Program-made: the position numbers and the translations under genes
DNA from: an uncultured virus (IMG/VR IMGVR_UViG_3300038423_000106)
Taxonomy: Duplodnaviria; Heunggongvirae; Uroviricota; Caudoviricetes
Direction: 5' to 3' (one strand)
Length of the DNA stretch: 20,000 nt
Virus record (IMG/VR): IMGVR_UViG_3300038423_000106
Shown: positions 33-20,000 of the stretch, piece after piece
Layout of the letters: each line of letters opens with the position of its first letter
How positions within the stretch are numbered: the first letter of the stretch is position 1
The notes under the pieces: generated by a model
The model's input: only the letters and a program-made list of their open reading frames with translations
Told to the model about the DNA's origin: nothing
Databases searched by the model: none

Positions 33-692
33 CTATGGTACGGTTACCGCCAGGGTCGCGCTCATGGCGCTGACTTTAGTTCCAAGCGCCGACTTGACGC
101 CATAGTACCGGGTCTGCCCCTTGACCGGCTTCGTGTCGACATAGGACGCCGCTGTGAGCCCGCTCGCCAGCTGTTTCGGGTCGGGCAGTTTCGGTTCCAC
201 TCCCCGGAACACATCGTAGCTGATTCCCTGCAAATTTACAGGCGTCCACTTCAACGGCACGCGGTTCTCCGTGACAGTCTCGACCGTCAGGCCGGTGGGC
301 GCCGGGGGCTGCGCGTCGGCTGGGATCGTGGCGCTCACCTCGTTTGACGGCCCTGAAAGGCTCGGGCTGGCGGTCGACAGATAGGCTTTGGCGACATACC
401 AGTAGGTCTGCAGAGCCGTCACCGCCGTATCGGTGTAGGAGCAGGTCGCGAGCGGCGAAGCATTCAGTGCCGTCGCGCTCTCCCCGCCGGAGGCCGTTCC
501 CTTGTAGAAATTAAACTGCACGCCCGCCGCCGTATCCGTGCATCCCCCGAGGGTAACGGAGTGCGCCGTCGCAGTGGCGGTGAGCGGGCGCGGCTCGATG
601 GAGGGCGGGGCAGGAGTGTTGGCGCGCTGGGCAGTCGGAGTCATACAGCCGACCAGGGCGAGCGAGAGAACTGCGGTGATGATGATTTTCAT
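33..692 (-). CDS. Lipoprotein with two FN3-like domains, 219 aa
   Basis: RBS AGGAG overlaps the upstream stop. Lipobox MKIIITAVLSLALVG|C, Pro-rich tether, and two FN3-like units (FNFYKG..SYTD..YWYVAKA..SGPSNEV; PPAPTGLTV..LKW..YDVFRG..SYVD..YYGV). Confidence 0.8.
   Translation of the reverse strand: MKIIITAVLSLALVGCMTPTAQRANTPAPPSIEPRPLTATATAHSVTLGGCTDTAAGVQFNFYKGTASGGESATALNASPLATCSYTDTAVTALQTYWYVAKAYLSTASPSLSGPSNEVSATIPADAQPPAPTGLTVETVTENRVPLKWTPVNLQGISYDVFRGVEPKLPDPKQLASGLTAASYVDTKPVKGQTRYYGVKSALGTKVSAMSATLAVTVP
227..242. promoter_or_regulatory. Palindrome copy 4 (CCTGCAAATTTACAGG)
   Basis: Core 228-241 has one mismatch to CTGCAAATTTGCAG. It is intragenic, about 200 bp upstream of the next gene start. 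Confidence 0.45.
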
Positions 693-699
693 GATTCTC

Positions 700-3192
700 C
701 TAGTGCACAGTCACAGACAATCCGGTTGGGGCGAGCGGGCCGCCCGTCAGCGGCGCGGCCGACATGAGGTCGATCAGCATCGCGTCACTTCTGCAATCGT
801 TCGGACCCTCGTTCGTCCATTGCACCGTCCCGTCGAGCGAAGGGCAATTTCCGTATGACGGACAAAATACTTGCCAGTTGGGAACCGTCGCGCCCGTCGT
901 CCCTCCGGCCGCCGTGAGGTAGACGTCGTTGTTCGGGTTGTTCGACACGGGGTAGACGGCCGATCCACCGGAGAACGCCGTGCTGGCGGACGGTGAAAAC
1001 CCGGCACGCAGTTGGTCGCATGATGCCTTCAGGTTCTTCCATGTAACCCCGCCGTCCACGCAGGAGGTGGCGCAGGCGGCGTCCCAATCAGGCTGCGTGC
1101 CGGAAGTGGTGCCAGCGGCGATGACCTGGAAGTCGTATTTCCCCGCGTTGTTCGAGGTCGGGTACATCGTGGCCCCGAGCGCGTAAGCCGCGCTCCCGGC
1201 CCACGCGGGCGAGGTCGAGCCGCGCGTCCCCATCATGTCCGTGCCGACCAATGCCCACTGGCCGTCCTGCGAGGCGTTCCCGATGTTGTTCTGCGCCTCG
1301 AAGCTCTGGTTCATCCCGGTGTTATAGATGTGCGAGAACCTATAGGTCGTTCCCAGCGGGCAAGTCCCGAGGCCCGTGCACTCTCCCACCACTTCACCGT
1401 AGTACGCCAGTCCAGTGAGTGCGCCGTTGGAGATCGTCGGAACCTGCGTGGCGAAGTCTACTATCGGAGGCGTATCCGTCAGCCCGGAATCGCGGTAGGA
1501 GTCATGGTGATCTGAAGGGAAGCCATTTGGCAGGATGTCCCGGCTCAACCATCCGGTTGAACCGCTACCGCCAATGGTCGGATAGGGCACTTCGTCAATC
1601 GTCCCGCTCACGCTCTGATAAACCATCGGCTGCGAGAAAAGATGCTGGTACTGGTCATTGTCCGCCCAGTAGTTCAAGTAGCCCTGCGCCTGGTGGCCGG
1701 AGGTGTGGCTGGCCCCGCTCGTCTGCGTGCTGACGTTGATGTTCAGCGTGGCTACTTGCCAAGTGTAGGTGTAGCAGTAGACGTCGGCCAACTGCCAGTA
1801 GGTCGAGTTCGGGGGAGCGTTCCCCGCCGTCGGGGTGGCGTAGACGTACTCGTAGTAGCTGTACGGCGCGCCGTGCGAGGGATCGTAAACCGTCTGGTGC
1901 GCGGGACTCGTCTTGGAATAGGTCTTGCCCGCGCTGTATGCCCCGTAGTACGTCGCGTTCGTGTTCAGGCAATTAGCCGTCCCCGGCGTGAGCACGGGCG
2001 TCCCGCCGCCATGCGTCGGCGTCAGCGACATGTAGGCCGAATTAAGGTCTGCTCCATTCCCGTGCAGCGTCATCAGGTCGGTCAAGGGGCATGGGTTGGT
2101 CCCGTACTTGCCGCAGATCACCGTGTCGGTAGTTGTCCAAGTGCCCGCGACGGTCGTGCCAGATCGCACCTGCCCGAGCCGAGTATTCAAAGCGTAATAT
2201 CCGGTTCCCGCTAAATACACTACAGCGTCGAATCCCGGCCCTTGCCCGTTGACTGAGCCAATGTTTGTCCACGTCACCCCTCCATCCGTGCAGGTCGAAG
2301 TGCAGGTCGACCACGTCGGCTCCGTGCCGGAAGTCGTTCCGCCGACGGTCGCCTGGAAGGCATGATTGGCGGAATTCCCCGTTTGCGGATAGATGAACGA
2401 AGTGTAGTCTCCGGTAACGTAGGCCGTGCTCCCCTTCCAATCCATCCCGCCCGCCATCGCAAGGGCTACTGAGCCGTCTGTCGCTGTCGTAAACTCCCCG
2501 TTCCATGTACTAAAGTAGGTTTTGGGGAAAGCGTTGCCAAGGTTCGCGTAAAGCGTTCGCGTGAACGTGTCTGTGCTCGGGTTGATCACGTCCTTGTAAA
2601 TGGTCAGACCGTCCGACCAAAGCTCGAAGATGGTGTACGCCTGTCCTCGGCTGAATACCTCCGCGCCCCCCGAGTTGAGCACGGTGCAGCCAGAAGTGCA
2701 CGGACTTCCGCTGATCGAGCCGCCGACGATCTGGCTCTTGGTCACGCCGGGATTCGAGGGCGAGATCGGTGTTCCGCCCGCTTCAGCAGCCCGGATCGCC
2801 GTCTTGTTTAGGTAATAGAGATAAGGGCCGCCTCCGACTGAGTAGACCATGAGCATGTTCGAGTTCTGCTCAAACAGATCGCGTTCTCCATCCGAGCCGA
2901 GTTGGAAGCTGTTGGTCGTCAGATGTGTACTTTGATCGGTCACAAGCAGCAGGAACGAGCCGAAGTCTTTATCCGTAGTGGCGGTGTTCGCTGGCGCGTT
3001 CGCCGCGAACGGTCCTGTTCCCGTCAGGAGGAAGCTAATGGGCGCTCCCGCGTGGCCCACTCCGACTCCCGCGACGCACCCGGATTCCGTCCCGACCTCG
3101 CAATTGTCCGTCCTCGCCGCGTAGGTCTGCGGCCCTTGCGCGAAACAGCAAGTCGTGAGCAGGACGCAGGCGAATTTGAGGAGGCTGCGCAC
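700..3192 (-). CDS. Secreted protein with CBM5/12-like repeats, possibly inserted in a beta-propeller, 830 aa
   Basis: Start reassigned to GTG at 3192 (MRSLLKFACVLLTTCCFA|Q), 2 bp after the upstream stop. Three W..S.AY..G..YP..N......GTT...P.W...C..DG.V.W.N repeats. YRFSH.YN and GNASQDGQWALVGTDM are TolB/propeller-like. Ends in PLAPTGLSVTVH. Confidence 0.65.
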   Translation of the reverse strand: MRSLLKFACVLLTTCCFAQGPQTYAARTDNCEVGTESGCVAGVGVGHAGAPISFLLTGTGPFAANAPANTATTDKDFGSFLLLVTDQSTHLTTNSFQLGSDGERDLFEQNSNMLMVYSVGGGPYLYYLNKTAIRAAEAGGTPISPSNPGVTKSQIVGGSISGSPCTSGCTVLNSGGAEVFSRGQAYTIFELWSDGLTIYKDVINPSTDTFTRTLYANLGNAFPKTYFSTWNGEFTTATDGSVALAMAGGMDWKGSTAYVTGDYTSFIYPQTGNSANHAFQATVGGTTSGTEPTWSTCTSTCTDGGVTWTNIGSVNGQGPGFDAVVYLAGTGYYALNTRLGQVRSGTTVAGTWTTTDTVICGKYGTNPCPLTDLMTLHGNGADLNSAYMSLTPTHGGGTPVLTPGTANCLNTNATYYGAYSAGKTYSKTSPAHQTVYDPSHGAPYSYYEYVYATPTAGNAPPNSTYWQLADVYCYTYTWQVATLNINVSTQTSGASHTSGHQAQGYLNYWADNDQYQHLFSQPMVYQSVSGTIDEVPYPTIGGSGSTGWLSRDILPNGFPSDHHDSYRDSGLTDTPPIVDFATQVPTISNGALTGLAYYGEVVGECTGLGTCPLGTTYRFSHIYNTGMNQSFEAQNNIGNASQDGQWALVGTDMMGTRGSTSPAWAGSAAYALGATMYPTSNNAGKYDFQVIAAGTTSGTQPDWDAACATSCVDGGVTWKNLKASCDQLRAGFSPSASTAFSGGSAVYPVSNNPNNDVYLTAAGGTTGATVPNWQVFCPSYGNCPSLDGTVQWTNEGPNDCRSDAMLIDLMSAAPLTGGPLAPTGLSVTVH

Positions 3193-3194
3193 AC

Positions 3195-4862
3195 TTAATG
3201 CACCGTCACGGTCAAGCCAGTCGGGGCGTTCGGCCCCGTAGCCGCAAACTGGTACGCGCCCACGTTCCACGCGCCAGTGGAAGGACGATTAACTCCGAGA
3301 ATGGCTGGAACGACTACAGTGTGATTGGTGGCGTTGTACGCCACGCCAGTGAACCCCTGAAGGCAGGCCGCCTTGGATACGGAATCGTTCAGTCCGTTGC
3401 AGAATGTCGCATTGTTCGTCCCGGCCCCGACCGTGGAATTACTGGATGCCGTGGGCGCGTAGTCGTTCGCTGACGTGTAGCCCTGCGTAGCGGCAAGAGT
3501 GGGCGTCATAAACAGATCAGTAGTTTCGCTACTGAATGAGCATCCGTCCATCGTGGAAGTGTAGGTCGTGATCCAGTGATTGTTCTGGGAGCTAACCGAT
3601 CCGGGAGCCGGAGCGGGGCAGGGCCATGCTGAATTGAACGGAGGATTCACGAAAGTGTTGTTATAAAAAGCCACATTCCCGCCGCCGATGGGAGGCGATG
3701 CTTGGCTGATGTTGAAGTAGTTCGAGTTCGCGTACAGGTCATGGATGACGTTGTTGAAGACGTAGTCTGTCTGTCCGGTAGGCGGGGCGAGCCACAGCGT
3801 GTTCGCGGAAAGCGCCTGGCTCCCGAGCGTCCCGATGTAACGGAAGATGTTGTTGTAGAAAAGATTCGGATCTGACGAGCCGTGGGACGTTTCCCCGTAG
3901 CACTGGAGCACGTCCGAGTGCGACGAGCCATCCGTCACGTTGTTCATATACTCCCAGAGATTGTCGTGAACCCGATAGCAGCCAGAAGATGAATTTTCTC
4001 CTTGGTTGTAGCGAACGACGTTGTAATTGAACTGATAAACGTCGCCTTTCATCGAAATCAGCGAGTACGGGTCGGAATCCGAACCGTCGATGACGTTGTA
4101 TTCATAGGTGATTCCGGGCTCCTGATTATAGCTGTAAAATGCGATCCCGCCGCCACCTTGCGTGCCAGCCGAAGTATGGGTCCATCCGTGAACGTAGTTT
4201 CTCGAAACAATGTGCCCGTTCGGGCTGCCGCTGGAGTTGAAGGTGAGCATGATCGCGCCACCTTCGTTCGATGATTGCGTGGTGTTCCAGCAGAACCCAG
4301 TGAACTCGAAATCGTCAAGGATGTTATAAACCGTGCCGCTGAAGGCAACCATGTCGTTGCCGTTCGTGACTTGGTAGGCGCAACTGCCGACCACGCTCGT
4401 GCTCGGCGAGTTGTCGCCCGTGAAAACGGGCCGCGTCCATCCCGTGCTCGGCCATCCGAGATCGACGCCGATGTACGTGTAATGACTGCTCGTGCCGCTC
4501 CAAGTGAAGTTGATGCCGCCACCGCCTGCGTATGGAGTCGCGGACGAGTTGCCGAAGTGGTAAGTCGATCCGCCCTCGATGATGATCCCGGTTCCAGCGG
4601 GAACGCCTGCTGATTGCACCGTGCCGCAAGTGGCCGTGCAGGTTGGCATCCCCGGAATGTGCAGCCACGGGCTTGATTCACTAGTGCCGGAATTGCTGTC
4701 CGACGCCCCGGAGAGCGACGAAGCGTAATAGCAAGAGGTCACGCCAAGCGAGGCAAGGGTGACCAACGCGCCCGAAGCATTCGGATAGTTCGTTCCATTG
4801 GGACAGGAGCCGCCAGCGGCAAAACAGGCCGCGCTCAGAAACAGGATAAGTACGCATCTCAT
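3195..4862 (-). CDS. Secreted right-handed parallel beta-helix protein (pectate-lyase/depolymerase-like), 555 aa
   Basis: Start MRCVLILFLSAACFA|A at 4862 (ATGA overlap). CYY.SS.SG.SDSNSGTSESSPW.H entry motif, Asn-ladder repeats (NYVH, YNVI, DNLW, NNIF, NNVI, NNTF), and C-terminal W.VGAYQF followed by PNAPTGLTVTVH. Confidence 0.78.
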   Translation of the reverse strand: MRCVLILFLSAACFAAGGSCPNGTNYPNASGALVTLASLGVTSCYYASSLSGASDSNSGTSESSPWLHIPGMPTCTATCGTVQSAGVPAGTGIIIEGGSTYHFGNSSATPYAGGGGINFTWSGTSSHYTYIGVDLGWPSTGWTRPVFTGDNSPSTSVVGSCAYQVTNGNDMVAFSGTVYNILDDFEFTGFCWNTTQSSNEGGAIMLTFNSSGSPNGHIVSRNYVHGWTHTSAGTQGGGGIAFYSYNQEPGITYEYNVIDGSDSDPYSLISMKGDVYQFNYNVVRYNQGENSSSGCYRVHDNLWEYMNNVTDGSSHSDVLQCYGETSHGSSDPNLFYNNIFRYIGTLGSQALSANTLWLAPPTGQTDYVFNNVIHDLYANSNYFNISQASPPIGGGNVAFYNNTFVNPPFNSAWPCPAPAPGSVSSQNNHWITTYTSTMDGCSFSSETTDLFMTPTLAATQGYTSANDYAPTASSNSTVGAGTNNATFCNGLNDSVSKAACLQGFTGVAYNATNHTVVVPAILGVNRPSTGAWNVGAYQFAATGPNAPTGLTVTVH

Positions 4863-5752
4863 TGGATCACCACGCAGATCACGTTCGACGGCGGACCTTC
4901 TTTTCCCGCAGAGTCCACTGCCGTTACGTAGTAGTCGTAGTTGTAGAACAGGGCTACTACCTGATCCGTATAGGTCACAGTCGGAGCCGTGACCGATCCG
5001 ATCTTCGTCATGCTGACCGGCGTGCTGCTTCCTGTGCAACTTCCGGTCGAAGGATAGCCACGATAGATATTGTAACTAGCGGCAGGATCACTTCCCGTAG
5101 GGGCGGTCCACGCGGGGAGCGTGTAGTGCGGAGCGAGCACGTAGCTGTATCTGTTGTTGAACCACTGGCCACCGATCAGAGAATAGAGCGTGACATACAT
5201 AGTCGAACCGTTGGCCGGGAACCCGGTCGCCTGAGTGCTCGTGAGAACGTTCCCCAGATTGCCGGACTGGATGTAATTGTTCCCGCCCACGGTGGTCCCT
5301 ATGTCGATCCAGTAGGCAGTTGCGCTCGTTCCTGCCGCCCATGTGAACGTTATGTGGTTTGTGTCCAGAGTCGAGTTGTTCGTCGGAGTCTGCATGACGG
5401 CGGCCCCGGCCGTTCCGTTCAGCGACGAATACGTGTAGACGCCGTGCTGCCATACGCCGCTCACCAGAGAGTACAGGGTGGCATAGACTGTTGTGCCGTT
5501 CAATGGGAGGCTCTGCACGGTGATAGTCAGAACGTTTCCCAGATTGCCGGATTGGTAGTAATTGTTCCCGCCAGCCGTCGTCCCGAGGTCGAGCCAGTAG
5601 GCCGTCGCCCCGCAGGAGGAGCAAGTCCAGTCGAACGTCACCGTGCTCCCGCTGAGTTGGGTTCCGGGTGTCGGCGTGGTGAGCGTGGCTTGCGGGAACG
5701 CCGCCGCGCAAGCGAGCCAGAGGAAGACTGCAAGTTTGCAGGTAATTTTCAT
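4859..5752 (-). CDS. Secreted protein with two tandem ~95-aa beta-sandwich repeats and a C-terminal FN3-like domain, 297 aa
   Basis: Signal peptide ending AAAFP|Q. Duplicated TF.W....ATAYW.D.GTT.GGNNY.QSGNLGNVLT...P.NG.T.Y.TLYSL..G.W. Terminal WTAP.....SYNIYRG...YTD.....YDYYVTAVDSAG.EGPPSN is FN3-like. Confidence 0.75.
   Translation of the reverse strand: MKITCKLAVFLWLACAAAFPQATLTTPTPGTQLSGSTVTFDWTCSSCGATAYWLDLGTTAGGNNYYQSGNLGNVLTITVQSLPLNGTTVYATLYSLVSGVWQHGVYTYSSLNGTAGAAVMQTPTNNSTLDTNHITFTWAAGTSATAYWIDIGTTVGGNNYIQSGNLGNVLTSTQATGFPANGSTMYVTLYSLIGGQWFNNRYSYVLAPHYTLPAWTAPTGSDPAASYNIYRGYPSTGSCTGSSTPVSMTKIGSVTAPTVTYTDQVVALFYNYDYYVTAVDSAGKEGPPSNVICVVIQ
5728..5741. promoter_or_regulatory. Palindrome copy 3 (CTGCAAGTTTGCAG)
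   Basis: One mismatch to the core. The reverse complement of 5726-5743 (ACCTGCAAACTTGCAGTC) matches 16771-16788 at 17/18. Lies in codons 4-9 of the 4859..5752 gene. Confidence 0.55.
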
Positions 5753-6645
5753 TGGTAGCCCGCCGCCGTCCAGAAGATCGTGCTCGTGACTTCCGTCGTG
5801 TCGCTCGACACGATAAGGAACCCGAATGCCGTCTGATTGACCACGTTCAGGAAGCCGTTGCCGAACCCGGCGGCGGCGCTCTTGCGCGTCACCTCCACGG
5901 CGTAGTTCGCGTCGCAGTAGGCAGCTCCGTTCGAGAACGTGACCTGATATGCCGCTTCAGGGGAGGAGCCGTACTGCTGCAACTGTCCGACGCCCGAGGC
6001 CACGTGGTTGTCACATGCCGTGGCTGCGGTCCCCGTCTGCCCGAGCAGAAAGAACGTAGGAGCGGGGGGTGGCGGAGCAGGAAAGGGCGCGCAGTTCGGG
6101 TATCCCGTGCTCAGCCATCCAGTAACCACCGGGGTCAGCGCTGGGCAGTTAGATTGGTAGATGCCTCCGAGCGAGTAGAGTTGCGGCGTGGCGAGCTTGG
6201 CCGTGATCACGGAAGGGTTCGTCGGCACGTACTGGTCGAAGTTACAAGCGCCGTTCGCGCACCAGTAGTTCGAGGTCTGCGGCTGCACGCACGCGTTGCC
6301 GTTCGCGGCGGGAGAGATCACGACGTTGTTCGAATCCTTTATGGTCAAAGCAAAACAAATGTTCATGGGATTCGTCGTGCTCGTGTTCGCCACCTGGCAG
6401 CCGCCCGTGATCGCCCCGTTCACTATCGGGCACACGGTCGGGTACGTGATCTGCTGCCCTCCGCCGTTCACCTGGTAGCTCACGGGGTTCCCGCCGCTGT
6501 CCGTGGCCTGCCAGACGAGTATCCCCGATGGCAGCAGGACTCCTCCAGCGCCGTATATGTTCGCGGCCGTGATGTTCATGAACGATTGGGAGAACGCGCT
6601 CCCGGCGAGCGCCGTCAGCAAAGCGATTTGAAGCAGTCGTTTCAT
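5749..6645 (-). CDS. Signal-peptide protein with C-terminal tail-fibre-tip-like domain, 298 aa
   Basis: Start MKRLLQIALLTALAGSAFS|Q at 6645 (ATGA overlap). C-terminal QQYG...VTFS...Y.DANYAV.VT...NQTA.GF.I......IFWTAAG resembles gp53-like fibre tips and the end of 13845..14378. Contains a Pro-rich linker. Confidence 0.6.
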   Translation of the reverse strand: MKRLLQIALLTALAGSAFSQSFMNITAANIYGAGGVLLPSGILVWQATDSGGNPVSYQVNGGGQQITYPTVCPIVNGAITGGCQVANTSTTNPMNICFALTIKDSNNVVISPAANGNACVQPQTSNYWCANGACNFDQYVPTNPSVITAKLATPQLYSLGGIYQSNCPALTPVVTGWLSTGYPNCAPFPAPPPPAPTFFLLGQTGTAATACDNHVASGVGQLQQYGSSPEAAYQVTFSNGAAYCDANYAVEVTRKSAAAGFGNGFLNVVNQTAFGFLIVSSDTTEVTSTIFWTAAGYQ

Positions 6646-8930
6646 TGCACCCCCGCCCCCCCGAAAACCGCACTCCCACCTATCACTTTGTTCGGACTCG
6701 ACAGTCCCGCCCAAGCCTCGACCAGGTTGTAGACGTTGACGCTCCCGAGGCCGGTGGCGAAGTCCCAGCCGGAAGTGGCGGGGTAGGCTGGTTGGTAGGC
6801 GCTGTCACTCGTGCTCAACACGCCGAAGTATTGATATGTGGAATCGTCGGGATCGTAGCAATTGACGTAAGTCGAGGCAGCTCCCGGATCACCACAACTT
6901 GTCGCGTTATCGCCTGCGGTGATGTCGTGAAAGACACACGAACTGCCTATTGAACTTCCAAGGCTTGCGTTGCACTGACTGTTTCCACCTGATCCGTATT
7001 CCGCCCGTGCTAATTGGTACAAAATAGGATTCGCAAGCCCCGACTGCGTTGTGCCGATCTTCTGGTTTATCAAAGCCTGAATCCCGGCCCAGATGGGCGT
7101 ACCCAAACTGGTCCCCAAAACGCCGCCCCAGAGCGTAGGAGGGTTGAGTGTGCCGCCAGTTCCATAGCAACCTTCGGAATCCGAGTTGCAATACATATAA
7201 AAATGCGTCCAAGTGCCTCCCCCGGAGAACATCGCCACGTCTGGCTGGTCGCGCACGCCATCTGAGGGATTGCCGAGAACGGATTGCCATGAAGGTTTCG
7301 GCCATCCGGCGCAAGTGCCGTTCACGACTGTGCCGCCAACGGGAACAGCCTGCCCGGTAGCGCAACTGCTCGGTCCTCCGCTGCCCGCGAGAATGGACTG
7401 GGAGTTTCCCGCTGTGTAAATCGCGCCTCCATAACCCGTGACAGGAAAGTTGCCATCCTTGATCGTGTTGCATACGCTAGTCGAGCCGTAGATTGGAATG
7501 CCGAGATACGAGGCTATGAGCGGGCTGGTGCAGGAATCGTCCCACGGAATCTCCGGCACGTAAGTGCCGCCTGCGGTGCCATACACCGAGTTATTGGTCG
7601 CGTTCCAATAGGAATTTATCGTTCCGGCGTAAGTGTCCCCGAAGTCCGTCCCGCCCACCGACGTGGCGTAGGGTGTCGAGCCAATCGCGTTCACGCTGAA
7701 GCCGAACACGGCAGAGAGGCCGTCGCTGCCAAAGCTGCAAATGCTCGCCCCCCAGTCCCCCGCGGCCACGAAAACTGAAATACCCTCCGACGCCGCCTGT
7801 TGTAACGCGTCATAATAAGCCAAGTTCGCGGCAGGCCCGTTCGCGGGTTCGCACAGTGCGTAACTGACGCTCATGATCGTCGGCGGGGAAGGCAGGTTGA
7901 CCAAGTTCTGAATCGCGATGATGATGCCGTCCCCAAATCCGCTGTCCCCGGCAAAGCAGGACGCGAGCACGAGATTGGCGCTCGGGGCTGCTGCGCTCGC
8001 CCACTCAACATCCACGGCGGCCTCAAGAACGTCAGGCGTGACGCCGGGATCGCTGCATGTAGGCTGCCCGCTGACCTGCGGGTGGGTCAGCGTTAGGGTG
8101 CTGGTGTAAGTGCTGAGTCCGCTAACCGAACGGAAATTTAGCCAGTCGCCATTCCACGGGCCACCCGAAGGTTCTTGCAAATCTGAATCTTCGACCAGCG
8201 TGATCGTCTGCCCCTGCCCGCTGATCCCGGAACTGAAGAGTGGGAGGAAACCGTAAATCGTCTCCAAATCGAACGGCATGACGTTTTGCAGTGTCCCGGC
8301 GCCATTAGTAAGAATTATCTGCGGCTCGGGGTTGAAGTTGCTCAGCCCCATGATGCCGACAATTGCGGGAGCCAAGGCAGCCGGGACTTGGGGGTTGCTG
8401 ACATTGCCCCTGTGGTTTTCGCTGGTCATTGGGCCGAGGCCCATGTTGCCATTCGGCTTCCTGCGGTTCACGGTCAGGTTGTGAATCTCGGTGTGGAAGG
8501 CGCCTGTGACCTGTCCCGCCGTACCCGAGAAATCTATCGTCAGATTGCTCGCGCCGTTGACCGTGAAGCCGTGCGACTTCAGCCATGTCGTGATGGCTTT
8601 CCGGTCGTCAGGATGCGTCGGCCACTGCGCGTTGAACTGAGCCGCCGTGAGCCATTTGCGGTAGTTCGGATGCTTTCGATCGTAGCGCGTCTCCACGTCG
8701 GCGGCCAGTGCTTGCGATTGTTCAGGAGCGCGGGCCAGCACCATGACCATGTGGTTCATGGCGAAGCTATCGGCCACCTTGCCCTTGTCGTTTGCCGGGA
8801 CGGTCGCCTCGGGCCTCGTGTTGCCAGCAAGCGTTGCCAGTTTGGTTTCGTCCACAGCAGAGGTCACGAGTCGGCGCGGGGTCTGCGCCATGACGCTCGC
8901 GGCCAGCAAGATCAGAAGGGTTATCCTCAT
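6642..8930 (-). CDS. S53 family (sedolisin/kumamolisin-like) serine-carboxyl peptidase with Pro-kuma activation domain and signal peptide, 762 aa
   Basis: Pro-domain P.YRKWLTAAQF...WL.SHGFTV...IDFSGTAGQV..AFHTEIH. Catalytic E-x3-D in EAAVDVEW (~8010-8024), oxyanion Asp in AAGDWG (~7755), nucleophile in GTSLGTP (Ser 7107-7109), and Ca-site motifs DITAGDN and GWDFATGLGS. Confidence 0.95.
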   Translation of the reverse strand: MRITLLILLAASVMAQTPRRLVTSAVDETKLATLAGNTRPEATVPANDKGKVADSFAMNHMVMVLARAPEQSQALAADVETRYDRKHPNYRKWLTAAQFNAQWPTHPDDRKAITTWLKSHGFTVNGASNLTIDFSGTAGQVTGAFHTEIHNLTVNRRKPNGNMGLGPMTSENHRGNVSNPQVPAALAPAIVGIMGLSNFNPEPQIILTNGAGTLQNVMPFDLETIYGFLPLFSSGISGQGQTITLVEDSDLQEPSGGPWNGDWLNFRSVSGLSTYTSTLTLTHPQVSGQPTCSDPGVTPDVLEAAVDVEWASAAAPSANLVLASCFAGDSGFGDGIIIAIQNLVNLPSPPTIMSVSYALCEPANGPAANLAYYDALQQAASEGISVFVAAGDWGASICSFGSDGLSAVFGFSVNAIGSTPYATSVGGTDFGDTYAGTINSYWNATNNSVYGTAGGTYVPEIPWDDSCTSPLIASYLGIPIYGSTSVCNTIKDGNFPVTGYGGAIYTAGNSQSILAGSGGPSSCATGQAVPVGGTVVNGTCAGWPKPSWQSVLGNPSDGVRDQPDVAMFSGGGTWTHFYMYCNSDSEGCYGTGGTLNPPTLWGGVLGTSLGTPIWAGIQALINQKIGTTQSGLANPILYQLARAEYGSGGNSQCNASLGSSIGSSCVFHDITAGDNATSCGDPGAASTYVNCYDPDDSTYQYFGVLSTSDSAYQPAYPATSGWDFATGLGSVNVYNLVEAWAGLSSPNKVIGGSAVFGGAGVQ

Positions 8931-9874
8931 TTCTGCACGACCGAGGCGCGGTGGCGCTTCACGCTGCCGCCGCCTGTATAGGTATAGGAAGCCACGTTGC
9001 TGTCTGCCGTGTAGGAAGTTCCGGCGACCACGTTGATTGTTTCGGCCACGGAAACGGTGAAACTCTCAGCAAACGAGCCTGTAGTACAGGCCAATCCAAA
9101 TCCATTCGTCACCGGATTCGTTGGGCTGACCGCATAACATGTTACGAACGTGGCCGACGAACTGGAACAGCTCACGGTCTGCGGCACCGTCCCGCTGCTC
9201 GGCGTGCAAGTCGGCGTGGCGGCCTTGGTCACGCTCCCACTGGTCTTGAAGGCGGCGACGTTCGACTCCGCATCGTCGCCATCGGCGCAGGTCCACACCA
9301 TGTCGATGGCCCCGCTGCCTGTGTTGTGGTAGTAGGCGTCTGCCTGCGAAGCGGTGGAAGGGTTATAGTCGTCGTTCGCTATGGTGCCCGTGCTTACCGA
9401 ACTGCAATCTCCGCTGCCGTCGAACCCTCCATAGGTCGAGATGAACAAGTCTCCGGACTGCGAAGGCAACAGGCTGCCGGGGTCTTGGCCGTTGCCATTG
9501 TTATTATTGCTGCCATCCGCCGGATTGAATCCAGTTGGCGTCCCGCTGAAGACCTGCACGGTGAGGAAGGCGCCGCCGCTTGCGCATGAAACTGTATCGG
9601 TTCCGCCGGAGAACGAGCCATAGGCGTAGTATGTCCAAAGGTAGTCCGCATCGGCATTGGCCTCGATGGCGTGCCAGCCCAGGCTTAAGGTATCTGTGGG
9701 CGCGTTGCCGATAATGCTGCACGATGCCTCGATCAGCGTAGCCGTGCCCGACCAAGTGACCGTGCAGGACGGCGGCGAATTCGTATAGTCGTCGCAGTTC
9801 CCGATGAGAGTCTGGGCGCTGGCCGCAGAACCAGCGAGCAGAAGCAAGGCGAGGATGAGTAAGATTCGTCGCAT
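8927..9874 (-). CDS. Secreted protein with C-terminal CHB_HEX_C/Fn3-associated-like domain, 315 aa
   Basis: Signal peptide MRRILLILALLLLAGSAASA|Q. AATPT.TPSSGT..QTV......CY...FTVS.AETINVVA....SNVASYTYT matches that domain pattern. Ends in a basic tail KRHRASVVQK. Confidence 0.65.
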   Translation of the reverse strand: MRRILLILALLLLAGSAASAQTLIGNCDDYTNSPPSCTVTWSGTATLIEASCSIIGNAPTDTLSLGWHAIEANADADYLWTYYAYGSFSGGTDTVSCASGGAFLTVQVFSGTPTGFNPADGSNNNNGNGQDPGSLLPSQSGDLFISTYGGFDGSGDCSSVSTGTIANDDYNPSTASQADAYYHNTGSGAIDMVWTCADGDDAESNVAAFKTSGSVTKAATPTCTPSSGTVPQTVSCSSSSATFVTCYAVSPTNPVTNGFGLACTTGSFAESFTVSVAETINVVAGTSYTADSNVASYTYTGGGSVKRHRASVVQK

Positions 9875-9876
9875 GG

Positions 9877-12800
9877 CTAATAGGTATATTCGATAATGAC
9901 TGCGAGACTTGTGCTGTGCGTGTCGGGCGTGCCCATCACCGGATCAATGCCCGTCCCGGTCGTCCAGCTCGCGTTCGACACCGAGCACGAGGAACTGTAG
10001 GCATAGCTGTTCCCGCACTGAAGCGTGCCGCTGCAAACCGTCGTGCCCGTTCCAGCCGAGCCGAATGACGGATTGACGGTCGTGGTGTTGGACGAGTAGT
10101 CGCTCCGGCACTTCACCGCCGTGATCGTCCGCGTCACTCCAGAATCGTTGTAGCAGGTGTTGTTCGAGATGGCGTCGTCGCCAGCCGTCAGCACGTTCGA
10201 GGTTCCCGTGCCGCCCCAGACCTCCGTGCACGATCCCTTGCTGTACTGTGCGGCAAGCTGCGTGGCCGTGACTGTGGCGTTCGCCATCATCGCGCCCGTG
10301 ATGAGGTTCGTGCAGGTGCTCGACAGGTTCTTGCTGCCGTCGGTGCAAACTGGCAACGAAGCGGTTAGTCCGCTAAAATTACCGCCAGTCGCGCTCACCG
10401 TGCTCGCCAGAGTCAGGGCTCCCGCCGCGCTCAAATGGCCTTCCAAAGTCCCGACCGTGTACACGCCCGCCGACACCGACCCGCCCGAGTACCAGCGCAC
10501 GATGTCGCCCGTGCCCGAAACGTCGAACACAAGTTCCCCGATGCCGCCAGTGGAAGTGCCCGCCGCTCCGATCAAAGCGCCGATGCTCGTGTTGTTGTTC
10601 GTCGAGTTCGTGTTCTCGATCACGTAAGGCGCGGTGAGGTTCCCGGTTTCAACTCCGGCCCGCGTGACCACATCTCCTGCTGCAACCTCTGTGATCGTCG
10701 TTGCCGTCGCTGATCCCGTCAGCTTCGATTCCGCCATGCTCGTGATGTCGCCGTTCACGACCGCACTGCTGGTCACCGTCTGCGTCGATCCGGCGAAGTG
10801 GGCTATGCCAGCCCCAGGCGAGGAAGCATTGACCACGTTAGCCGTCACCACGCCACTATCATGCAGCAAGCAGGTCGTGCTCGTGACCGTGCAGTCAATC
10901 AGGTGTCCGGTTGTCGGCACAGCCGCGAACCCCTGAATCGTGTTGCTCGCAGTCGCTCCGCTCGCCCACGTCGTCGTGAAGTTTCCGGTCGCCGGGAACA
11001 TGGACAAGCTACCAGCAGTGCCGCTCACGCCCAAGGTCGGCGTATAGGTCAAGGCGGGCGTTGCGCCAGCCAGAAGCTCGCCTGCGCCGCCCGGTAAATC
11101 GCCAGCCGCAATCGCCGTCGAGTTGAACACTCCCGCAACCGACGTGGCGTGCAGGACGTGCGTAGTCGTCGTGTCGGAGTTCGCGCCGACCATGTACTCG
11201 CTCGTGATCGGGAACGTGAGCGTGACCGCACCGGACGAGGCCGGGAAAGTCAGGGTTGTCAGGTTGCTGCCAGTCCCGGTTACTAATTGGTTGCTGGCCG
11301 TGCCGAGGTACAGCGGCTGGTTGAACGTGGCCTTGTTCGAGGCGAAGGTGAACTTCGGGCTGCCGCTGTCCGCGCTGCCCAGCGATCCGCCAGCCGCCAC
11401 CGCGAGGTTTCCGCTCGCGTCCAGCGTGGAAGTCGTCGAGGGCGTTTGCAGTGTGGTCGTGCCGCCGCCCGTGACCAAGGCCGTGCTCGTCAGCGAGCCG
11501 GAACTGACGACCGTTACCGTTCCAGAACCGCCCGGCGTGGAGCAGGTTCCGTCGCTCTTGAGATAACCAGAGCAGGAGCCGGAGCCGAACAGTGCGATTA
11601 CATTGGAGGAAGTTGCTGGCGTGATGTTCGTGGAAGTGGAGAACGCCGCCAAGGGCGTGCCGCTGGAGTAGCCGGACGAAGTGACCGTGCCGCTGCTCGT
11701 GCCGACCGCCGCGCCGTTGACATACAATCCAGCCGCATTGATCGTGCCCGCGCCCTTCGCCCCGCCCGTCGCGCTGCCCCAAACCGAGCCAGTTGGCTCT
11801 GTGGCGAGGAGTTGCCCAGAAATTGTTACCGCGCCAGCAAACGTCGCCGCCTGATTCTGATCGAGGAGTAATGCCTGCGTCAGAGTCGTGGAGCTGTTCG
11901 GAGTCGTGTAGAACTTCAACTGCGAGCCGAAAGCCGAACTGGTCCAAGCCTGCGTCGTCCACGCGCTGATGATCGCGCCGGTAGCTTCCGTGTCCGAAGT
12001 CGAATCGGAACCGCCGAACTGTAGCGTGCCCATGATGACGCCGGAACCAAGCGCTGCTCCCGTCGGAACGGCGGACAATGAGATGATTCCGCCGTCAGCG
12101 GAGAGTCCCGTCCCGGTCGTGCCGACGTTGTGGAAGTGCGCCGAAGTGTCGTTGCTGCCATAAACCTCAAAATGGGCGTCGATGGCCTGCGAGCCGCGCA
12201 CGCCAAGTTGCAGCGTTGGCAAGCTGTCGTAGCCGGTGTCGTTGTAGTAGAAATCCGCAGGAATGCCAGAGAGCAAGCCTCCCGATCCCGCAAAGAGCAC
12301 GCCATACTGCGAGATGCCGCTGTCGGTGATAGCAGGGCTGCTCAAGCCGGTGACGAATGTCGGGGAAGTCGCGAGCACGAAGTTGCCGGTGCCCGTCGTG
12401 TTCCCCGTCGCGTCCGATGGAGTGATGGCCGAGATCGTCTCCGTGATCGTGGGCGAGGAATAGGCGTAGTGCGGGATGCCCGAGGAAGGCGTCACCGCGA
12501 ACAGGCCGTGGTAAGAAGTCACGCCCGAGGCCGGAGCCTCCCAGCAAACGGAGCCTGTGGGCTGATTGGCTACGCAGTTATCCGCGCCTTGAGTCAGCGC
12601 GAAGTAGCCCGCGCCCGAGCCGGAGAAGGTCGCGCCGGGAAAGGTCTGTGCCGCCGTCCATGTGTTCGCGTGGCCCAAATTCAGCGAGGCCACCACCGCG
12701 CCAGTGGTAGGAGTTACGGTAAGCGTGCTGTCGCTGTTCGAGACCGAGAAGACTGCGCCTCCGCTTCCGTTCGCCACCCATGACCGCACGCCAGCGGTCG

Positions 12801-19079: not shown

Positions 19080-20000
19080 TGCGACGACCCGATCAGCTTC
19101 GTGATCAGCGCGCCCTGGTTGACCGCGCCCTTGATGTCCGTCTGCCACAGGTCGCCGCGCGAATCGCCCCTATGCCTCACCTGGAGGACGGCGTACTTCA
19201 GCGGAGGGCTGAGCGGGTACGGCGGGTAGCCGGCGGCGTTCGGCTGGTACGGTATCTGCTCGATGAGAGCCTGGTCGATGGACACCACCTGGAGCGGCAG
19301 CTTCGTCACCACGAACGGGTTGAGCAGCACGGAGAAATCTACTCCGTTCTGGTTCTGGACCGGCGTTCCGAGCAGCCCGTTGGACGGGGTGAATGTGAAG
19401 TCCGAGGTGGCCGTGTCCACCCCCTCCGCCGGGTCGCCGACGTAGATGCCGGTGTCCGTCGCGGCCAGTCCGCGCTGCTTCATGAACCAGACGAGGTCGT
19501 TCGCCTTCGTGATCTCGTCCAGCACCTGCGCCGGGTTCCCCGCCACAACGCTGTCGTACTTCAGCTGCGTGTCGCTCAGCTTGGACGGCAGCGGGGTTTC
19601 TAAATGCAGCCCGAGCGACTCGATCATCGAGGTCACGATCTGCGCCTGGTTGAACCCGGAGTACACGGCGCTCAATGTCTGCCCGTTGATCGCCTGGAGC
19701 AGCCCGATTATGCAGTGCAGCGTCAGCCGGTAATCGGTGACGTTCTCCCGCGTCCACGTCGGCTGGAGGATCGGACCCTGCCAGATGATGCCGTAGTTGC
19801 CGTTCTGGTACCCGGCGCTCAGGATGACGTTCATCCCCGGCTTGACCGCGTAGGCGTCCTTGATCAGCCCGATGGAGGTCGCCGGCCCGAGGTTGTAGAT
19901 GTCGATGTCGGCGAACCAGTAGGCGTTCTGGAAAACCAGCGTGCGCACGTCGAAGGTGATGCGCAGCGCCTCCGGCTCGAACGAGCTGTCGCTGACCGTG
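19076..20000 (-). CDS. Phage baseplate hub / tail protein (Mu gp44/gpD-like), 5' end outside window
   Basis: Frame stays open from 19948 to the window edge (TVSDSSFEPEALRITFDVRTLVFQNAYWFADIDIYNL). Motifs LRITFDV..A.IDIYNL, VILSAGY...YGIIW.G, GLLGTP and H.GDSRG.LWQT are typical of myophage hub proteins. Lies directly upstream of the spike gene. Confidence 0.8.
   Translation of the reverse strand, partial: TVSDSSFEPEALRITFDVRTLVFQNAYWFADIDIYNLGPATSIGLIKDAYAVKPGMNVILSAGYQNGNYGIIWQGPILQPTWTRENVTDYRLTLHCIIGLLQAINGQTLSAVYSGFNQAQIVTSMIESLGLHLETPLPSKLSDTQLKYDSVVAGNPAQVLDEITKANDLVWFMKQRGLAATDTGIYVGDPAEGVDTATSDFTFTPSNGLLGTPVQNQNGVDFSVLLNPFVVTKLPLQVVSIDQALIEQIPYQPNAAGYPPYPLSPPLKYAVLQVRHRGDSRGDLWQTDIKGAVNQGALITKLIGSSQ

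What the first reader, a model, noticed from the sequence alone, without database searches (positions are those of the whole stretch)
33..5130. Split FN3 modules: orphan C-terminal 'A-strand' tags and FN3 domains lacking strand A, a possible strand-complementation docking system
Seen: two otherwise unrelated enzyme-like proteins end in nearly the same 12-mer, PNAPTGLTVTVH* (3198-3233) and PLAPTGLSVTVH* (703-738). This matches the first strand of the complete FN3 in the lipoprotein (PPAPTGLTVETV). Two neighbouring FN3-like domains start directly at the second strand: HSVTL... in the lipoprotein (~563-321) and HYTLPAW... in the 297-aa protein (~5129-4862). Inference: the tags could insert into the incomplete FN3 domains, as in pilus donor-strand exchange, making a modular cellulosome-like assembly. 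Alternatively they are a C-terminal sorting signal.
Basis: inference. Interest (0 to 1): 0.75.

Follow-up and report, generated by a model that had tools for sequence, protein, structure and literature searches.

The report
Split FN3 strand-tag docking system
Two secreted enzymes of a soil-bacterium phage end in a 12-residue peptide that looks like the missing first strand of a neighbouring protein's incomplete fibronectin-III domain, and the same tag and acceptor pairing recurs in Acidobacteria, pointing to an undescribed way of clipping secreted enzymes onto scaffold proteins.

Summary
Both tags sit at the stated coordinates. They are conserved at protein level, not DNA level, and do not arise by chance.

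The tag (P-x-[AP]-P-[TS]-[GN]-L-x-[AV]-x-V-[QHN]-stop) is widespread and modular:
- It ends at least 87 of 120 homologues of the beta-helix enzyme.
- It ends proteins of at least 20 unrelated groups in soil metagenomes, including S8 proteases, GH16 and a caspase-like peptidase.
- All 124 metagenome matches are followed by a true stop codon.
- Genomes carry only 0-3 copies, so it is not a proteome-wide sorting signal.

AlphaFold2 leaves the tag disordered on its own enzyme. A complex model places it as strand A, antiparallel to strand B, of the FN3-like domain of the adjacent 297-aa protein: score 0.70, best of 3 controls 0.01. This pass may owe much to the model's memory of the FN3 fold.

The nearest relatives of that domain are small secreted proteins that start at strand B and end in an A-strand tag.

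In 81 Acidobacteriaceae genomes, all 15 tag carriers have this FN3 subfamily, against 17 of the other 66. In 8 of the 15 it lies within 36 kb of the tag.

The lipoprotein has its own A-strand-like segment and is probably not an acceptor. Binding is untested.

The scan has noted similar orphan-strand tails on other DNA. The new element here is a candidate reader for the tag.

The parts
3198..3233 (-). Donor tag 1: the last 12 codons (PNAPTGLTVTVH) of the 555-aa beta-helix enzyme; stop TAA at 3195-3197.
   Evidence: pLDDT is below 50 and there is no secondary structure in the monomer model. Residues 541-555 form the whole interface on this chain in the complex model.
703..738 (-). Donor tag 2: the last 12 codons (PLAPTGLSVTVH) of the 830-aa protein; stop TAG at 700-702.
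   Evidence: In this family the tag is an add-on. 2 of 10 members carry it, and the other 8 end at or within 3 residues of ..DL(L/I/M)SA(H/Y).
3198..4862 (-). 555-aa secreted right-handed beta-helix glycanase or lyase-like enzyme (signal peptide, body, Gly/Ala/Pro linker, tag).
   Evidence: AlphaFold2 mean pLDDT 82. Foldseek matches GH136 lacto-N-biosidases, PL9/PL6 lyases, rhamnogalacturonan lyase, the HK620 tailspike and RbmB. There are 270 homologues at E<=1e-3. No Pfam or NCBIfam hit.
703..3192 (-). 830-aa secreted protein of unknown fold carrying tag 2. The likely start is GTG 3192, which gives the signal peptide MRSLLKFACVLLTTCCFAQG.
   Evidence: PHROG 20658 matches its repeated motif, E 1.3e-10. 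In locus L118 a relative is fused behind a beta-helix homologue.
4862..5128 (-). Candidate acceptor: the FN3-like domain of the 297-aa protein (H209-Q297), which begins at strand B and has no strand A.
   Evidence: sequence; interface residues 209-220, 222-224, 272-280, 283-297, with antiparallel register 213:552, 214:551, 215:550; nearest relatives.
5129..5752 (-). N-terminal part of the 297-aa protein: a signal peptide and two copies of a beta-sandwich repeat of about 90 aa that has no Pfam model.
   Evidence: AlphaFold2 pLDDT 88-98 over the repeats. 272 homologues at E<=1e-3, most made of repeats only. No Pfam hit.
36..692 (-). 219-aa lipoprotein with two FN3-like domains. Each has an A-strand-like segment of its own (PRPLTATATA|HSVTL and PPAPTGLTVETV). 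Probably not an acceptor.
   Evidence: sequence only. No Pfam hit. No homologue beside tags elsewhere.

Best explanation
The 12-residue C-terminal peptide is a donor strand. It corresponds to strand A of a fibronectin-III (FN3) domain, detached from the rest of the domain and hung on a flexible linker at the end of Sec-exported enzymes.

Its partner is an FN3 domain that lacks strand A and starts directly at strand B, with the signature (Q/P)-H-[STY]-x-x-L-x-W ... YN[VI]YR.

The tag lies antiparallel to strand B. Its conserved Leu (L550) packs into the core beside the conserved Trp (W215) and the F and G strands, which completes the sandwich and joins the two proteins without a covalent bond.

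In this phage the acceptor is the C-terminal domain of the 297-aa protein, whose two N-terminal repeats may bind glycan. The donors are the beta-helix glycanase-like enzyme and the 830-aa protein. Either enzyme could therefore be coupled in trans to the same binding module.

In Acidobacteriaceae the acceptors sit at the C-terminal tip of ASH/HYDIN-type Ig-array proteins, or on membrane-anchored proteins of about 110 aa. The donors are beta-helix enzymes of polysaccharide-synthesis loci and other hydrolases.

Shown by sequence or computation: the anatomy, the conservation, the modularity, the model of the complex and the co-occurrence. Inferred: that the two parts bind, and what the binding is for.
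For: 1. The tag is real, conserved and strictly terminal.
- Among the 120 listed homologues of the 555-aa protein, 67 end in the strict motif and 87 in a looser one.
- In 1.49 Mb around 80 bacterial homologues the strict motif occurs 96 times in six frames. 56 of these lie directly before a stop; the other 40 look like noise.
- All 124 metagenome matches to PPTGLxAxVQ+TRR end in TAG, TAA or TGA (51, 46, 27), none in TGG.

2. It is modular.
- With the tag removed, 121 metagenome carriers fall into 20 BLAST clusters. Pfam names S8, GH16 and C14 among them.
- 2 of 10 members of the 830-aa family carry it.
- A third family of about 240 aa carries it in 5 loci.

3. Tags within one locus resemble each other more than tags from different loci: 6.67 against 3.87 identities of 8, and only 3 of 720 permutations reach the observed value. 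In 5 of 6 loci, 5-8 of the identical residues use different codons.

4. The tag is free on its own protein: pLDDT is below 50 for residues 544-555 while the body is confident.

5. Complex model: score 0.70, best of 3 controls 0.01. That mark was reached by 116 of 157 solved complexes and 2 of 215 mismatched pairs. My own alignments were used, so these counts hold only roughly. The three runs agree in at least 55% of contacts, and the partner's pLDDT is at least 49. The interface is the tag (541-555) against strand B (209-220) and strands F and G.

6. Donor and acceptor occur on one chain. P0390, P0354, P0306 and P0334 (125-173 aa) start at strand B and end in PNAPSALTVTSVK, PNAPTGLTGQVR, PNAPTNLNGQSQ and APPTGLSGKVGP. 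In P0390 and P0334 strand B follows the signal peptide directly; in P0354 and P0306 it follows a further stretch of about 30-40 residues. They are 4 of the only 5 proteins with a tag-like end among 151 examined. In P0256 the first FN3 lacks strand A, while the inner FN3 domains begin PNAPTGLSFVQ-SG-LTVTLSW, which is the tag followed by the turn and strand B.

7. Co-occurrence in a sample of 81 Acidobacteriaceae genomes.
- All 15 tag carriers have a hit to the FN3 profile A3 at E<=1.5e-10, against 17 of the other 66 (Fisher 7e-8).
- At E<=1e-5 the figures are 15 of 15 against 42 of 66 (p 0.003).
- In 8 of the 15 a hit lies within 36 kb on the same contig, where 1.7 are expected (simulated P 7e-5).
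- In L299 the tagged enzyme is the next gene to a 788-aa Ig-array protein ending in an A-less FN3.
Against: - No binding has been measured.
- The complex model rebuilds a very common fold from two pieces, so its pass may reflect memory of FN3 rather than this particular pair. The tool says so itself.
- AlphaFold2 on the 297-aa protein alone gave pLDDT 33-70 for this domain. It therefore cannot show whether the groove is open or filled in cis.
- The FN3 subfamily is commoner than the detected tags: 17 of 66 genomes without a detected tag have it. Either many acceptors have no donor, or my narrow DNA pattern misses tags.
- Co-occurrence was not corrected for shared ancestry or genome size. The E-value cut-off of 1.5e-10 was chosen after seeing the data.
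- Away from the phage, acceptors are seldom neighbours of tags. There are none within 1.2 kb of the 124 metagenome tags, and one A-less FN3 (L071) within 10 kb of the 80 beta-helix loci.
- No homologue of the phage's 297-aa FN3 or of its lipoprotein lies beside tags elsewhere.
- The phage has two donors and one clear acceptor.
- Other viral homologues of the enzyme end differently.
Confidence: 0.6

Rival explanations
1. The tag is a beta-strand address label, but it is read by something other than an A-less FN3. Candidates are a PDZ-type domain that binds C-termini, a POTRA-like domain, or a periplasmic part of the polysaccharide export machinery. Under this reading the fit to the 297-aa protein is a modelling artefact.
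For: The end of the tag is fixed to within a residue and finishes in Q, H or N (92 of 120 homologues end in one of these). A reader of free C-termini would demand exactly that. Bacterial carriers of the main family sit in polysaccharide-synthesis clusters, beside GT2 in 74 of 80 loci, GT1/4 in 52 and a Polysacc_synt flippase in 28. Acceptor-type FN3 genes are rarely adjacent.
Against: No such reader was found or tested. The tag matches, residue for residue, strand A of complete FN3 domains of the same subfamily (P0256). Small proteins with both donor and acceptor exist. Co-occurrence and proximity with the FN3 subfamily are strong. Controls in the complex model scored 0.00-0.01.
Confidence: 0.15
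2. The tag is a C-terminal sorting, secretion or processing signal. A dedicated enzyme or secretion step recognises it, and perhaps removes it, as sortase-type and exosortase-type signals are recognised.
For: It is strictly C-terminal, modular across unrelated families, and found on proteins with N-terminal hydrophobic leaders (107 of 120 homologues pass a crude test). A sedolisin-type peptidase is encoded four genes upstream in the phage.
Against: The tag has no hydrophobic helix or basic tail; the chain ends 5-6 residues after the conserved Leu. Genomes carry only 0-3 tags each: 5 genomes, 301 phylum-wide genomes with counts at control level, and 15 of 81 family genomes with 1-3 tags. No NCBIfam or Pfam sorting-domain model matches. 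No processing enzyme recurs beside the tags.
Confidence: 0.15
3. The tag is an evolutionary remnant of a lost C-terminal FN3 domain, or part of the enzyme's own fold, with no function in trans.
For: Some homologues carry whole Ig or FN3 domains after the same point (L030, P0076, P0080). A truncation origin is therefore plausible.
Against: The same end point is kept across families and over sequence divergence down to about 35% identity. Synonymous changes show selection on the peptide. The tag has been gained by some members of otherwise untagged families. It is disordered in the monomer model.
Confidence: 0.05

Closest known systems
PilC/PilY1 to PilK beta-strand complementation in type IV pili (bioRxiv 10.64898/2026.02.14.705861; abstract and significance statement read)
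   Same: The last ten or so residues of a large exported protein supply, in trans, a missing strand of a partner's beta-sheet. In some relatives the same strand is supplied in cis.
   Different: There the partner is a minor pilin and the strand is the final one of its sheet. Here the partner is an FN3 sandwich and the strand is its first one. The clients are enzymes of many families, and no filament machinery is involved.
Donor-strand complementation and exchange in chaperone-usher pili, type V pili and archaeal threads (archaeal threads: bioRxiv 10.1101/2022.04.26.489512, abstract read; the others recalled)
   Same: An Ig-like fold lacking one strand is completed by a strand from another chain. 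The small donor-plus-acceptor proteins (P0390 type) have the layout of a self-polymerising subunit.
   Different: No chaperone, usher or processing protease was seen. The missing strand is A, not G, and the donor is C-terminal. In the window the result would be a heterodimer of enzyme and adaptor, not a fibre.
Cohesin-dockerin assembly of cellulosomes (recalled, not searched)
   Same: The logic is the same: a small C-terminal module on many different secreted enzymes plugs into a receptor domain on a scaffold or anchor protein.
   Different: A dockerin is a folded calcium-binding domain of about 70 aa that binds the surface of a complete cohesin. Here a 12-residue unfolded peptide would become part of the receptor's own fold. 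Each genome has only a few clients.
WceF of Pantoea stewartii, a tailspike-like beta-helix glycosidase encoded in an exopolysaccharide cluster (PMC7949094; abstract read)
   Same: A right-handed beta-helix glycan-cleaving enzyme encoded inside a polysaccharide-synthesis locus, with phage counterparts. This matches where the bacterial homologues of the 555-aa protein sit.
   Different: This is a resemblance of context and fold only; no sequence relationship was tested. The abstract does not mention a C-terminal strand tag on WceF.
Tripartite C-terminal sorting signals (LPXTG, PEP-CTERM, GlyGly-CTERM; recalled)
   Same: A short conserved motif at the extreme C-terminus of exported proteins from unrelated families.
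   Different: Those have a motif followed by a transmembrane helix and a basic tail, dozens of clients per genome, and a dedicated transpeptidase. The tag has none of these features.

Membership tests
Fibronectin type III domain (the tag as its strand A) | The tag aligns with the N-terminal P-x-x-P-[TS]-[GN]-L motif and strand A of complete FN3 domains. | tested here: met
   It matches the lipoprotein's second domain PPAPTGLTVETV, the inner domains of P0256 PNAPTGLSFVQ-SG-LTVTLSW and the fused form in L030 PSIPTGLAKTGATTSSISLSW.
Fibronectin type III domain (the 297-aa C-terminal domain) | Recognised by the curated model, or by homology to FN3 repeats. | tested here: inconclusive
   No Pfam family at E<=0.01. 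However, phmmer finds 418 proteins at E<=1e-3, mostly multi-FN3 proteins with the W ... YNVYR ... Y-x-V-x-A-x-D signature. The AlphaFold2 model of this domain has low confidence.
Donor-strand complementation systems | The acceptor fold lacks one strand in its own chain. | tested here: met
   Tested by sequence only. Strand B (HYTLPAW) follows the previous domain's last strand with no spacer. The same is seen in 13 of the 14 distinct bacterial domains read; the exception (L248) has its own A-strand-like segment.
Donor-strand complementation systems | A strand from another chain fills the gap. | tested here: inconclusive
   The model supports this but does not show it: score 0.70, best of 3 controls 0.01. 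The mark was reached by 116 of 157 solved complexes and 2 of 215 mismatched pairs. Runs agree in at least 55% of contacts and the partner's pLDDT is at least 49. The pass may come from likeness to solved FN3 structures.
Donor-strand complementation systems | A dedicated chaperone, usher or maturation protease. | tested here: not met
   None was recognised among the window's genes by Pfam, PHROGs or NCBIfam. The sedolisin gene is present, but no link to the tags was tested.
Tripartite C-terminal sorting signals (LPXTG, PEP-CTERM and similar) | A motif followed by a hydrophobic helix and a basic tail, with many clients per genome. | tested here: not met
   The chain ends 5 residues after the Leu. 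Genomes carry 0-3 tags each. No NCBIfam sorting-domain hit.
T9SS C-terminal domain | A folded C-terminal beta-sandwich of about 80-100 aa. | tested here: not met
   The tag is 12 residues long and disordered in the model. No Pfam or NCBIfam match.
Cohesin-dockerin | A dockerin domain (duplicated calcium-binding loop-helix) and a cohesin domain. | tested here: not met
   No Pfam match to either in any of the 14 window proteins scanned. The analogy is one of function only.
PDZ-type recognition of free C-termini | A PDZ-domain protein that binds the terminal residues. | not tested
   Considered because the end point of the tag is so exact. No search for a partner was made.

The most novel reading that the evidence does not exclude
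Soil Acidobacteria and at least one of their phages use a natural split-FN3 system. A 12-residue strand-A tag on secreted hydrolases snaps into strand-A-less FN3 domains, which are carried by Ig-array stalk proteins, by tiny membrane anchors and, in the phage, by a lectin-like adaptor. The result would be small, exchangeable enzyme-scaffold assemblies. Subunits that carry both halves (P0390 type) would daisy-chain into non-covalent FN3 fibres. The orphan-strand tails that this scan has noted in other phyla would be versions of the same principle.
Probability: 0.4. Interest if true: 0.85.

Novelty: new variant of a known kind. Interest (0 to 1): 0.8.

Why it matters
If the pairing is real, it is a compact, genetically encoded way to attach secreted enzymes to scaffolds. 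It differs from cohesin-dockerin and from sorting signals. It is spread over many enzyme families in soil bacteria and has been borrowed by a phage together with its acceptor.

It would explain a class of conserved orphan C-terminal tails that annotation pipelines ignore. It would give a handle on how Acidobacteria organise enzymes that remodel their exopolysaccharide. It would also offer a natural peptide-plus-domain pair for protein engineering.

The idea is directly testable with one peptide and one 90-residue domain.

Tried and rejected
1. Proteome-wide sorting signal. Rejected.
- 5 whole genomes hold about one real tag each.
- In 301 genomes sampled across the phylum, counts equal the reversed-pattern control.
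- In 81 genomes of the family, 15 hold 1-3 tags (matches translated by eye).

2. Conserved neighbours. tblastn of the phage's eight secreted proteins against 80 bacterial loci and 124 metagenome loci found relatives of the 555-aa protein only, apart from one weak hit to the repeat region of the 297-aa protein.

3. Exact tag in viral contigs. Of 9 stretches, only the 2 on one near-identical phage contig are tags. Of 26 viral loci with a homologue of the enzyme, only that same contig has the tag.

4. AlphaFold2 on the 297-aa protein, to see whether strand A is supplied in cis. The domain came out at pLDDT 33-70, which is uninformative.

5. A link between the 315-aa protein and the 240-aa tagged family. 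No BLAST hit.

6. Pfam, PHROGs and NCBIfam gave nothing for the tag-bearing proteins, the 297-aa protein or the lipoprotein, apart from one PHROG repeat hit.

7. Literature. Four full-text searches found no paper on a split-FN3 or strand-tag docking system or on such a tag in Acidobacteria. The library lacks most subscription journals.

8. Earlier notes of this scan, looked up by sequence and by place, gave nothing relevant.


Full report
**What the window is.** The tool treats the window as part of a virus record of 29.4 kb. All the genes discussed lie on the minus strand.
- Positions 20000 to 13848 encode contractile-tail baseplate proteins: baseplate hub, a spike-type protein, wedge subunits, Baseplate_J, DUF2612 and a fibre-like protein (Pfam and PHROGs).
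- Beyond the low end of the window, the contig carries ORFs that I read by eye as lysis, repressor, RusA and HNH genes (not scanned against a library).
- Between these two blocks lie eight tightly packed genes whose products all begin with a signal-peptide-like leader (leaders read by eye): 1323 aa, 315 aa, a 762-aa sedolisin-type peptidase (Pro-kumamolisin activation domain), 298 aa, 297 aa, 555 aa, 830 aa and a 219-aa lipoprotein.
- Start and stop codons overlap or nearly touch. ATG 4862 overlaps the stop of the 297-aa gene. GTG 3192 lies two bases after the stop of the 555-aa gene. The lipoprotein ATG lies seven bases after the stop of the 830-aa gene.

**The observation.**
- The 555-aa and 830-aa proteins end in PNAPTGLTVTVH (3233-3198) and PLAPTGLSVTVH (738-703).
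- A degenerate pattern for this end plus a stop finds only these two sites, and none in 200 of 200 shuffles.
- 10 of 12 residues agree, but five of the ten use different codons. This is selection on the peptide, not a recent DNA copy.
- The bodies of the two proteins are unrelated. One is a right-handed beta-helix (AlphaFold2 mean pLDDT 82). Its Foldseek matches are GH136 lacto-N-biosidases, PL9/PL6 lyases, rhamnogalacturonan lyase, the HK620 tailspike and RbmB. The other has no recognised family apart from a repeat motif that hits PHROG 20658.
- The tag matches the start of the lipoprotein's second FN3 (PPAPTGLTVETV).
- The FN3-like domain of the 297-aa protein begins at strand B with no room for strand A..YSYVLAP|HYTLPAWTAP... 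YSYVLAP is the last strand of the preceding repeat, as the repeat-only homologues ending ..YTYTSGP show. P0171, the only full-length relative among the 120 listed, reads ..YTYTLAS|HYVTLSW...
I read this as its own strand A, so that part of the observation does not hold.

**The tag is a conserved, terminal, modular element.**
- Of the 120 best homologues of the 555-aa protein (270 at E<=1e-3), 67 end in a strict form of the motif and 87 in a looser form. 92 of the 120 end in Q, N or H. Several of the 33 'misses' still look tag-like by eye. Others carry whole extra Ig-like domains or a different short tail.
- In 1.49 Mb around 80 bacterial homologues the strict motif occurs 96 times in six frames. 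56 occurrences sit directly before a stop codon, and the other 40 look like noise.
All 124 end in a true stop (TAG 51, TAA 46, TGA 27, TGG 0).
- With the tag cut off, 121 of these carriers fall into 20 clusters. Pfam names an S8 subtilase, a GH16 and a caspase-type C14 peptidase among the representatives. Most of the rest have no Pfam family.
- In the 830-aa family the tag is an add-on. 2 of 10 members have it, and the other 8 stop at or within 3 residues of ..DLLSAH.
- A third family, of about 240 aa, carries it next to the beta-helix gene in five loci.
- Tags on two proteins of one locus are more alike than tags from different loci: 6.67 against 3.87 identities of 8, and 3 of 720 permutations reach the observed value. 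In five of six loci there are 5-8 synonymous differences. The six loci represent about four independent lineages, so this is a hint of a shared partner and not proof.

**It is not a general sorting signal.**
- Five whole genomes carry about one real tag each.
- In 301 genomes spread over the phylum, the pattern is no commoner than its reversed control.
- In 81 genomes of the family of the Silvibacterium-titled record, I count 15 genomes with 1-3 tags. I translated the 58 listed matches by eye. Two further genomes with D or E at the third position were left in the negative class.
- The tag has no hydrophobic or basic tail, and no NCBIfam or Pfam model matches it.

**Where the bacterial homologues sit.** The beta-helix gene lies in polysaccharide-synthesis clusters. 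Cluster representatives are GT2 (in 74 of 80 loci), GT1/4 (52), a methyltransferase (45), a polysaccharide deacetylase (43), a HAD-type protein (43), a hexapeptide transferase (42), FemAB-like proteins (38), a Polysacc_synt flippase (28) and a Bac_transf sugar transferase (18). A multi-pass membrane protein in 73 loci has no Pfam hit. This context recalls WceF, the tailspike-like glycosidase of the stewartan cluster (PMC7949094, abstract read). None of the phage's other secreted proteins has a relative in these loci.

**Test of the docking idea in the window.**
- In the monomer model the tag (residues 544-555) has pLDDT below 50 and no secondary structure, while the body is confident. The tag does not pack on its own protein.
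- The monomer model of the 297-aa protein is confident for the two repeats (pLDDT 88-98) but poor for the FN3-like domain (33-70). It cannot say whether a groove is open.
- For the complex I gave residues 113-297 of the 297-aa protein and residues 506-555 of the enzyme, each with its own alignment (result). The verdict was that the model supports binding but does not show it.
- Score 0.70 (three runs: 0.75, 0.70, 0.69); best of 3 controls 0.01. That mark was reached by 116 of 157 solved complexes and 2 of 215 mismatched pairs. Because my own alignments were used, these counts hold only roughly.
- The runs agree in at least 55% of contacts, and the partner's pLDDT is at least 49.
- On the enzyme side the interface is exactly the linker end and the tag (541-555). 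On the other side it is strand B and the B-C loop (209-220, 222-224), strand F (272-280) and the G region (283-297).
- The register 213:552, 214:551, 215:550, 216:548 is antiparallel, as strands A and B are in FN3. L550 touches W215, A214 and residues 274-276, 289 and 292, so it points into the core.
- The caveat is serious. This is a common fold rebuilt from two pieces, and such cases tend to pass by likeness to solved structures.

**Independent support from relatives.**
- A phmmer search of the 93-residue domain against 1.84 billion representatives gave 418 hits at E<=1e-3, mostly ordinary FN3 repeats in giant proteins.
- Matches that reach the very start of the query include small proteins of a special kind. 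P0390 (125 aa) and P0334 (127 aa) have a signal peptide followed directly by strand B (..NAQAA|HSVALSW..). P0354 (157 aa) and P0306 (173 aa) reach strand B after a further 30-40 residues (..PGGAS|HCSLLTW.., ..PPGIL|HCSILTW..).
- After strand G and a linker of about six residues, all four end in an A-strand tag: PNAPSALTVTSVK, PNAPTGLTGQVR, PNAPTNLNGQSQ and APPTGLSGKVGP.
- Among 151 proteins examined, 5 have a tag-like end, and 4 of them are these.
- By my reasoning from FN3 topology, the linker has the length of a normal inter-domain spacer. It is too short to reach back to the far pole of the same domain. The strand would therefore have to go to another molecule.
- P0256 has an A-less first FN3 directly after its signal peptide. 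Its five inner FN3 domains begin PNAPTGLSFVQ-SG-LTVTLSW and similar. The tag therefore corresponds to strand A up to the residue before the A-B turn.

**Co-occurrence.**
- With a profile of these domains (A3) I searched genomes. All five tag-carrying genomes tried have strong hits.
- Reading 14 distinct hits, 13 start as ..(Q/S/V/E)-H-(S/T/R)|V-x-L-x-W.. or similar, directly after the last strand of an ASH/HYDIN-type Ig domain or after an N-terminal membrane helix, with no P-x-x-P-x-x-L strand. One (L248) has an A-strand-like segment of its own.
- The large carriers are arrays of ASH/HYDIN/Cep192-type Ig domains. One begins with a lipoprotein-like leader by eye. The small ones (107-120 aa: L254, L259, L289) are a membrane helix plus the domain.
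- In the 81-genome family sample, all 15 tag carriers have a hit at E<=1.5e-10, against 17 of the other 66 (Fisher one-sided 7e-8). That threshold was chosen after seeing the data.
- At the search's own limit of 1e-5 the figures are 15 of 15 against 42 of 66 (p 0.003).
- The two unpublished genomes in the sample, G307 and G327, are both in the negative class. Without them the figures are 17 of 64 and 40 of 64.
- In 8 of the 15 carriers a hit lies within 36 kb of a tag on the same contig: 1.2, 2.3, 9.4, 28, 33, 35, 35 and 36 kb. 1.7 are expected if placement were random (simulated P 7e-5). Only the 150 best of 227 matches were listed, so 8 is a lower bound.
- In L299 a tagged 550-aa pectate-lyase-like enzyme (..PPVPPTGLAAVVH) is the next gene to a 788-aa Ig-array protein ending in an A-less FN3, and a second such protein is transcribed divergently.
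- These tests do not correct for shared ancestry or genome size.

**Results against the reading.**
- The FN3 subfamily is commoner than the tags I could detect, so it may be a stable six-stranded variant that needs no partner.
- No FN3 signature lies within 1.2 kb of any of the 124 metagenome tags. Within 10 kb of the 80 beta-helix loci there is one A-less FN3 (L071) and one complete FN3 (L030).
- Among 26 viral loci with a homologue of the enzyme, only the near-identical phage has the tag. The others end in long Ig-domain tails or in other short tails such as ..GATIIQ and ..GGVKIK.
- The phage has two donors for one clear acceptor.

**Comparison with what is known.**
- The nearest precedent I found is the C-terminal peptide of PilC/PilY1, which completes the sheet of a PilK-type minor pilin in trans (abstract read).
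- Donor-strand complementation in pili and in archaeal threads is the general kind (abstract read).
- Cohesin-dockerin is the functional analogue (recalled).
- Four full-text searches found no description of a split-FN3 or strand-tag docking system, or of this tag in Acidobacteria. The library lacks most subscription journals, so this is not proof of absence.
I did not test those notes. What is added here is a candidate reader for the tag.

**Verdict.**
- I rate it about 0.9 likely that the tag is a real, selected, modular C-terminal element.
- I rate it 0.6 likely that it works by completing A-less FN3 domains, and that the 297-aa protein is the acceptor in this phage.
- I rate it about 0.15 likely that the lipoprotein is an acceptor.
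- The mechanism belongs to a known kind, strand complementation in trans. As a docking system for enzymes built on a split FN3, it appears to be new.

Noticed in passing
window 36-13848, minus strand: Eight consecutive genes lie between the baseplate module and what I read by eye as lysis genes of a phage. All encode proteins with signal-peptide-like leaders: 1323 aa, 315 aa, a 762-aa sedolisin-type peptidase, 298 aa, 297 aa, 555 aa, 830 aa and a lipoprotein. Tail fibres would normally sit here. A block of exported enzymes in this position is unusual.
   Followed up: partly
window 3487-4411 compared with L098:2954-3926: A closely related phage contig is 93-98% identical on both sides, but the middle of the beta-helix gene is replaced or strongly diverged (only a 201-nt stretch at 72% identity). 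The N-terminus and the C-terminal 45 residues with the tag are kept. This looks like a swap of the specificity-determining body between conserved ends.
   Followed up: partly
L118 (viral contig locus), ORF of 1623 aa: A homologue of the beta-helix enzyme is fused, through a short tail ..SGGMRMSGNMVLKGSWSL.., to a relative of the window's 830-aa protein (..YSARTDNCAVGTESGC..). The two tagged proteins of the window therefore occur as one chain elsewhere.
   Followed up: no
window 703-3192, minus strand: The 830-aa protein contains at least three copies of a motif of about 30 residues (..GGTTSGTEPTW...C..DGGVTW.N..). The motif matches PHROG 20658, annotated 'head decoration', at E 1.3e-10.
   Followed up: no
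L104, L108, L110, L111, L116, L120; P0051, P0096, P0106: Some homologues of the enzyme end in a different short tail of 20-27 residues instead of the FN3-type tag, for example ..SGTTISSGATIIQ..GGSVIIHE and ..VRLSGGVKIK. This may be a second kind of strand tag.
   Followed up: no
window 5129-5690; P0132-P0250: The two N-terminal repeats of the 297-aa protein belong to a large family with no Pfam model (272 hits at E<=1e-3). Many members consist of 2-5 repeats only and end ..YTYTSGP.
   Followed up: no
P0390, P0354, P0306, P0334 (from the representative library): These small secreted proteins combine an FN3 lacking strand A with a C-terminal strand-A tag on a linker of about six residues. That is the layout expected of a subunit that polymerises head to tail by donor-strand complementation.
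   Followed up: partly
L249-L267, L299, L300; window 5126-5128: A histidine sits one or two residues before strand B in 12 of the 14 distinct A-less FN3 domains read in tag-carrying genomes (QHS, QHT, SHT, VHS, EHR, KHH, NSH) and in the phage domain (APH). It would lie next to the free C-terminus of an inserted tag.
   Followed up: no
L254, L259, L289: Proteins of 107-120 aa consist of one N-terminal membrane helix and one A-less FN3. They are possible membrane anchors for tagged proteins.
   Followed up: no
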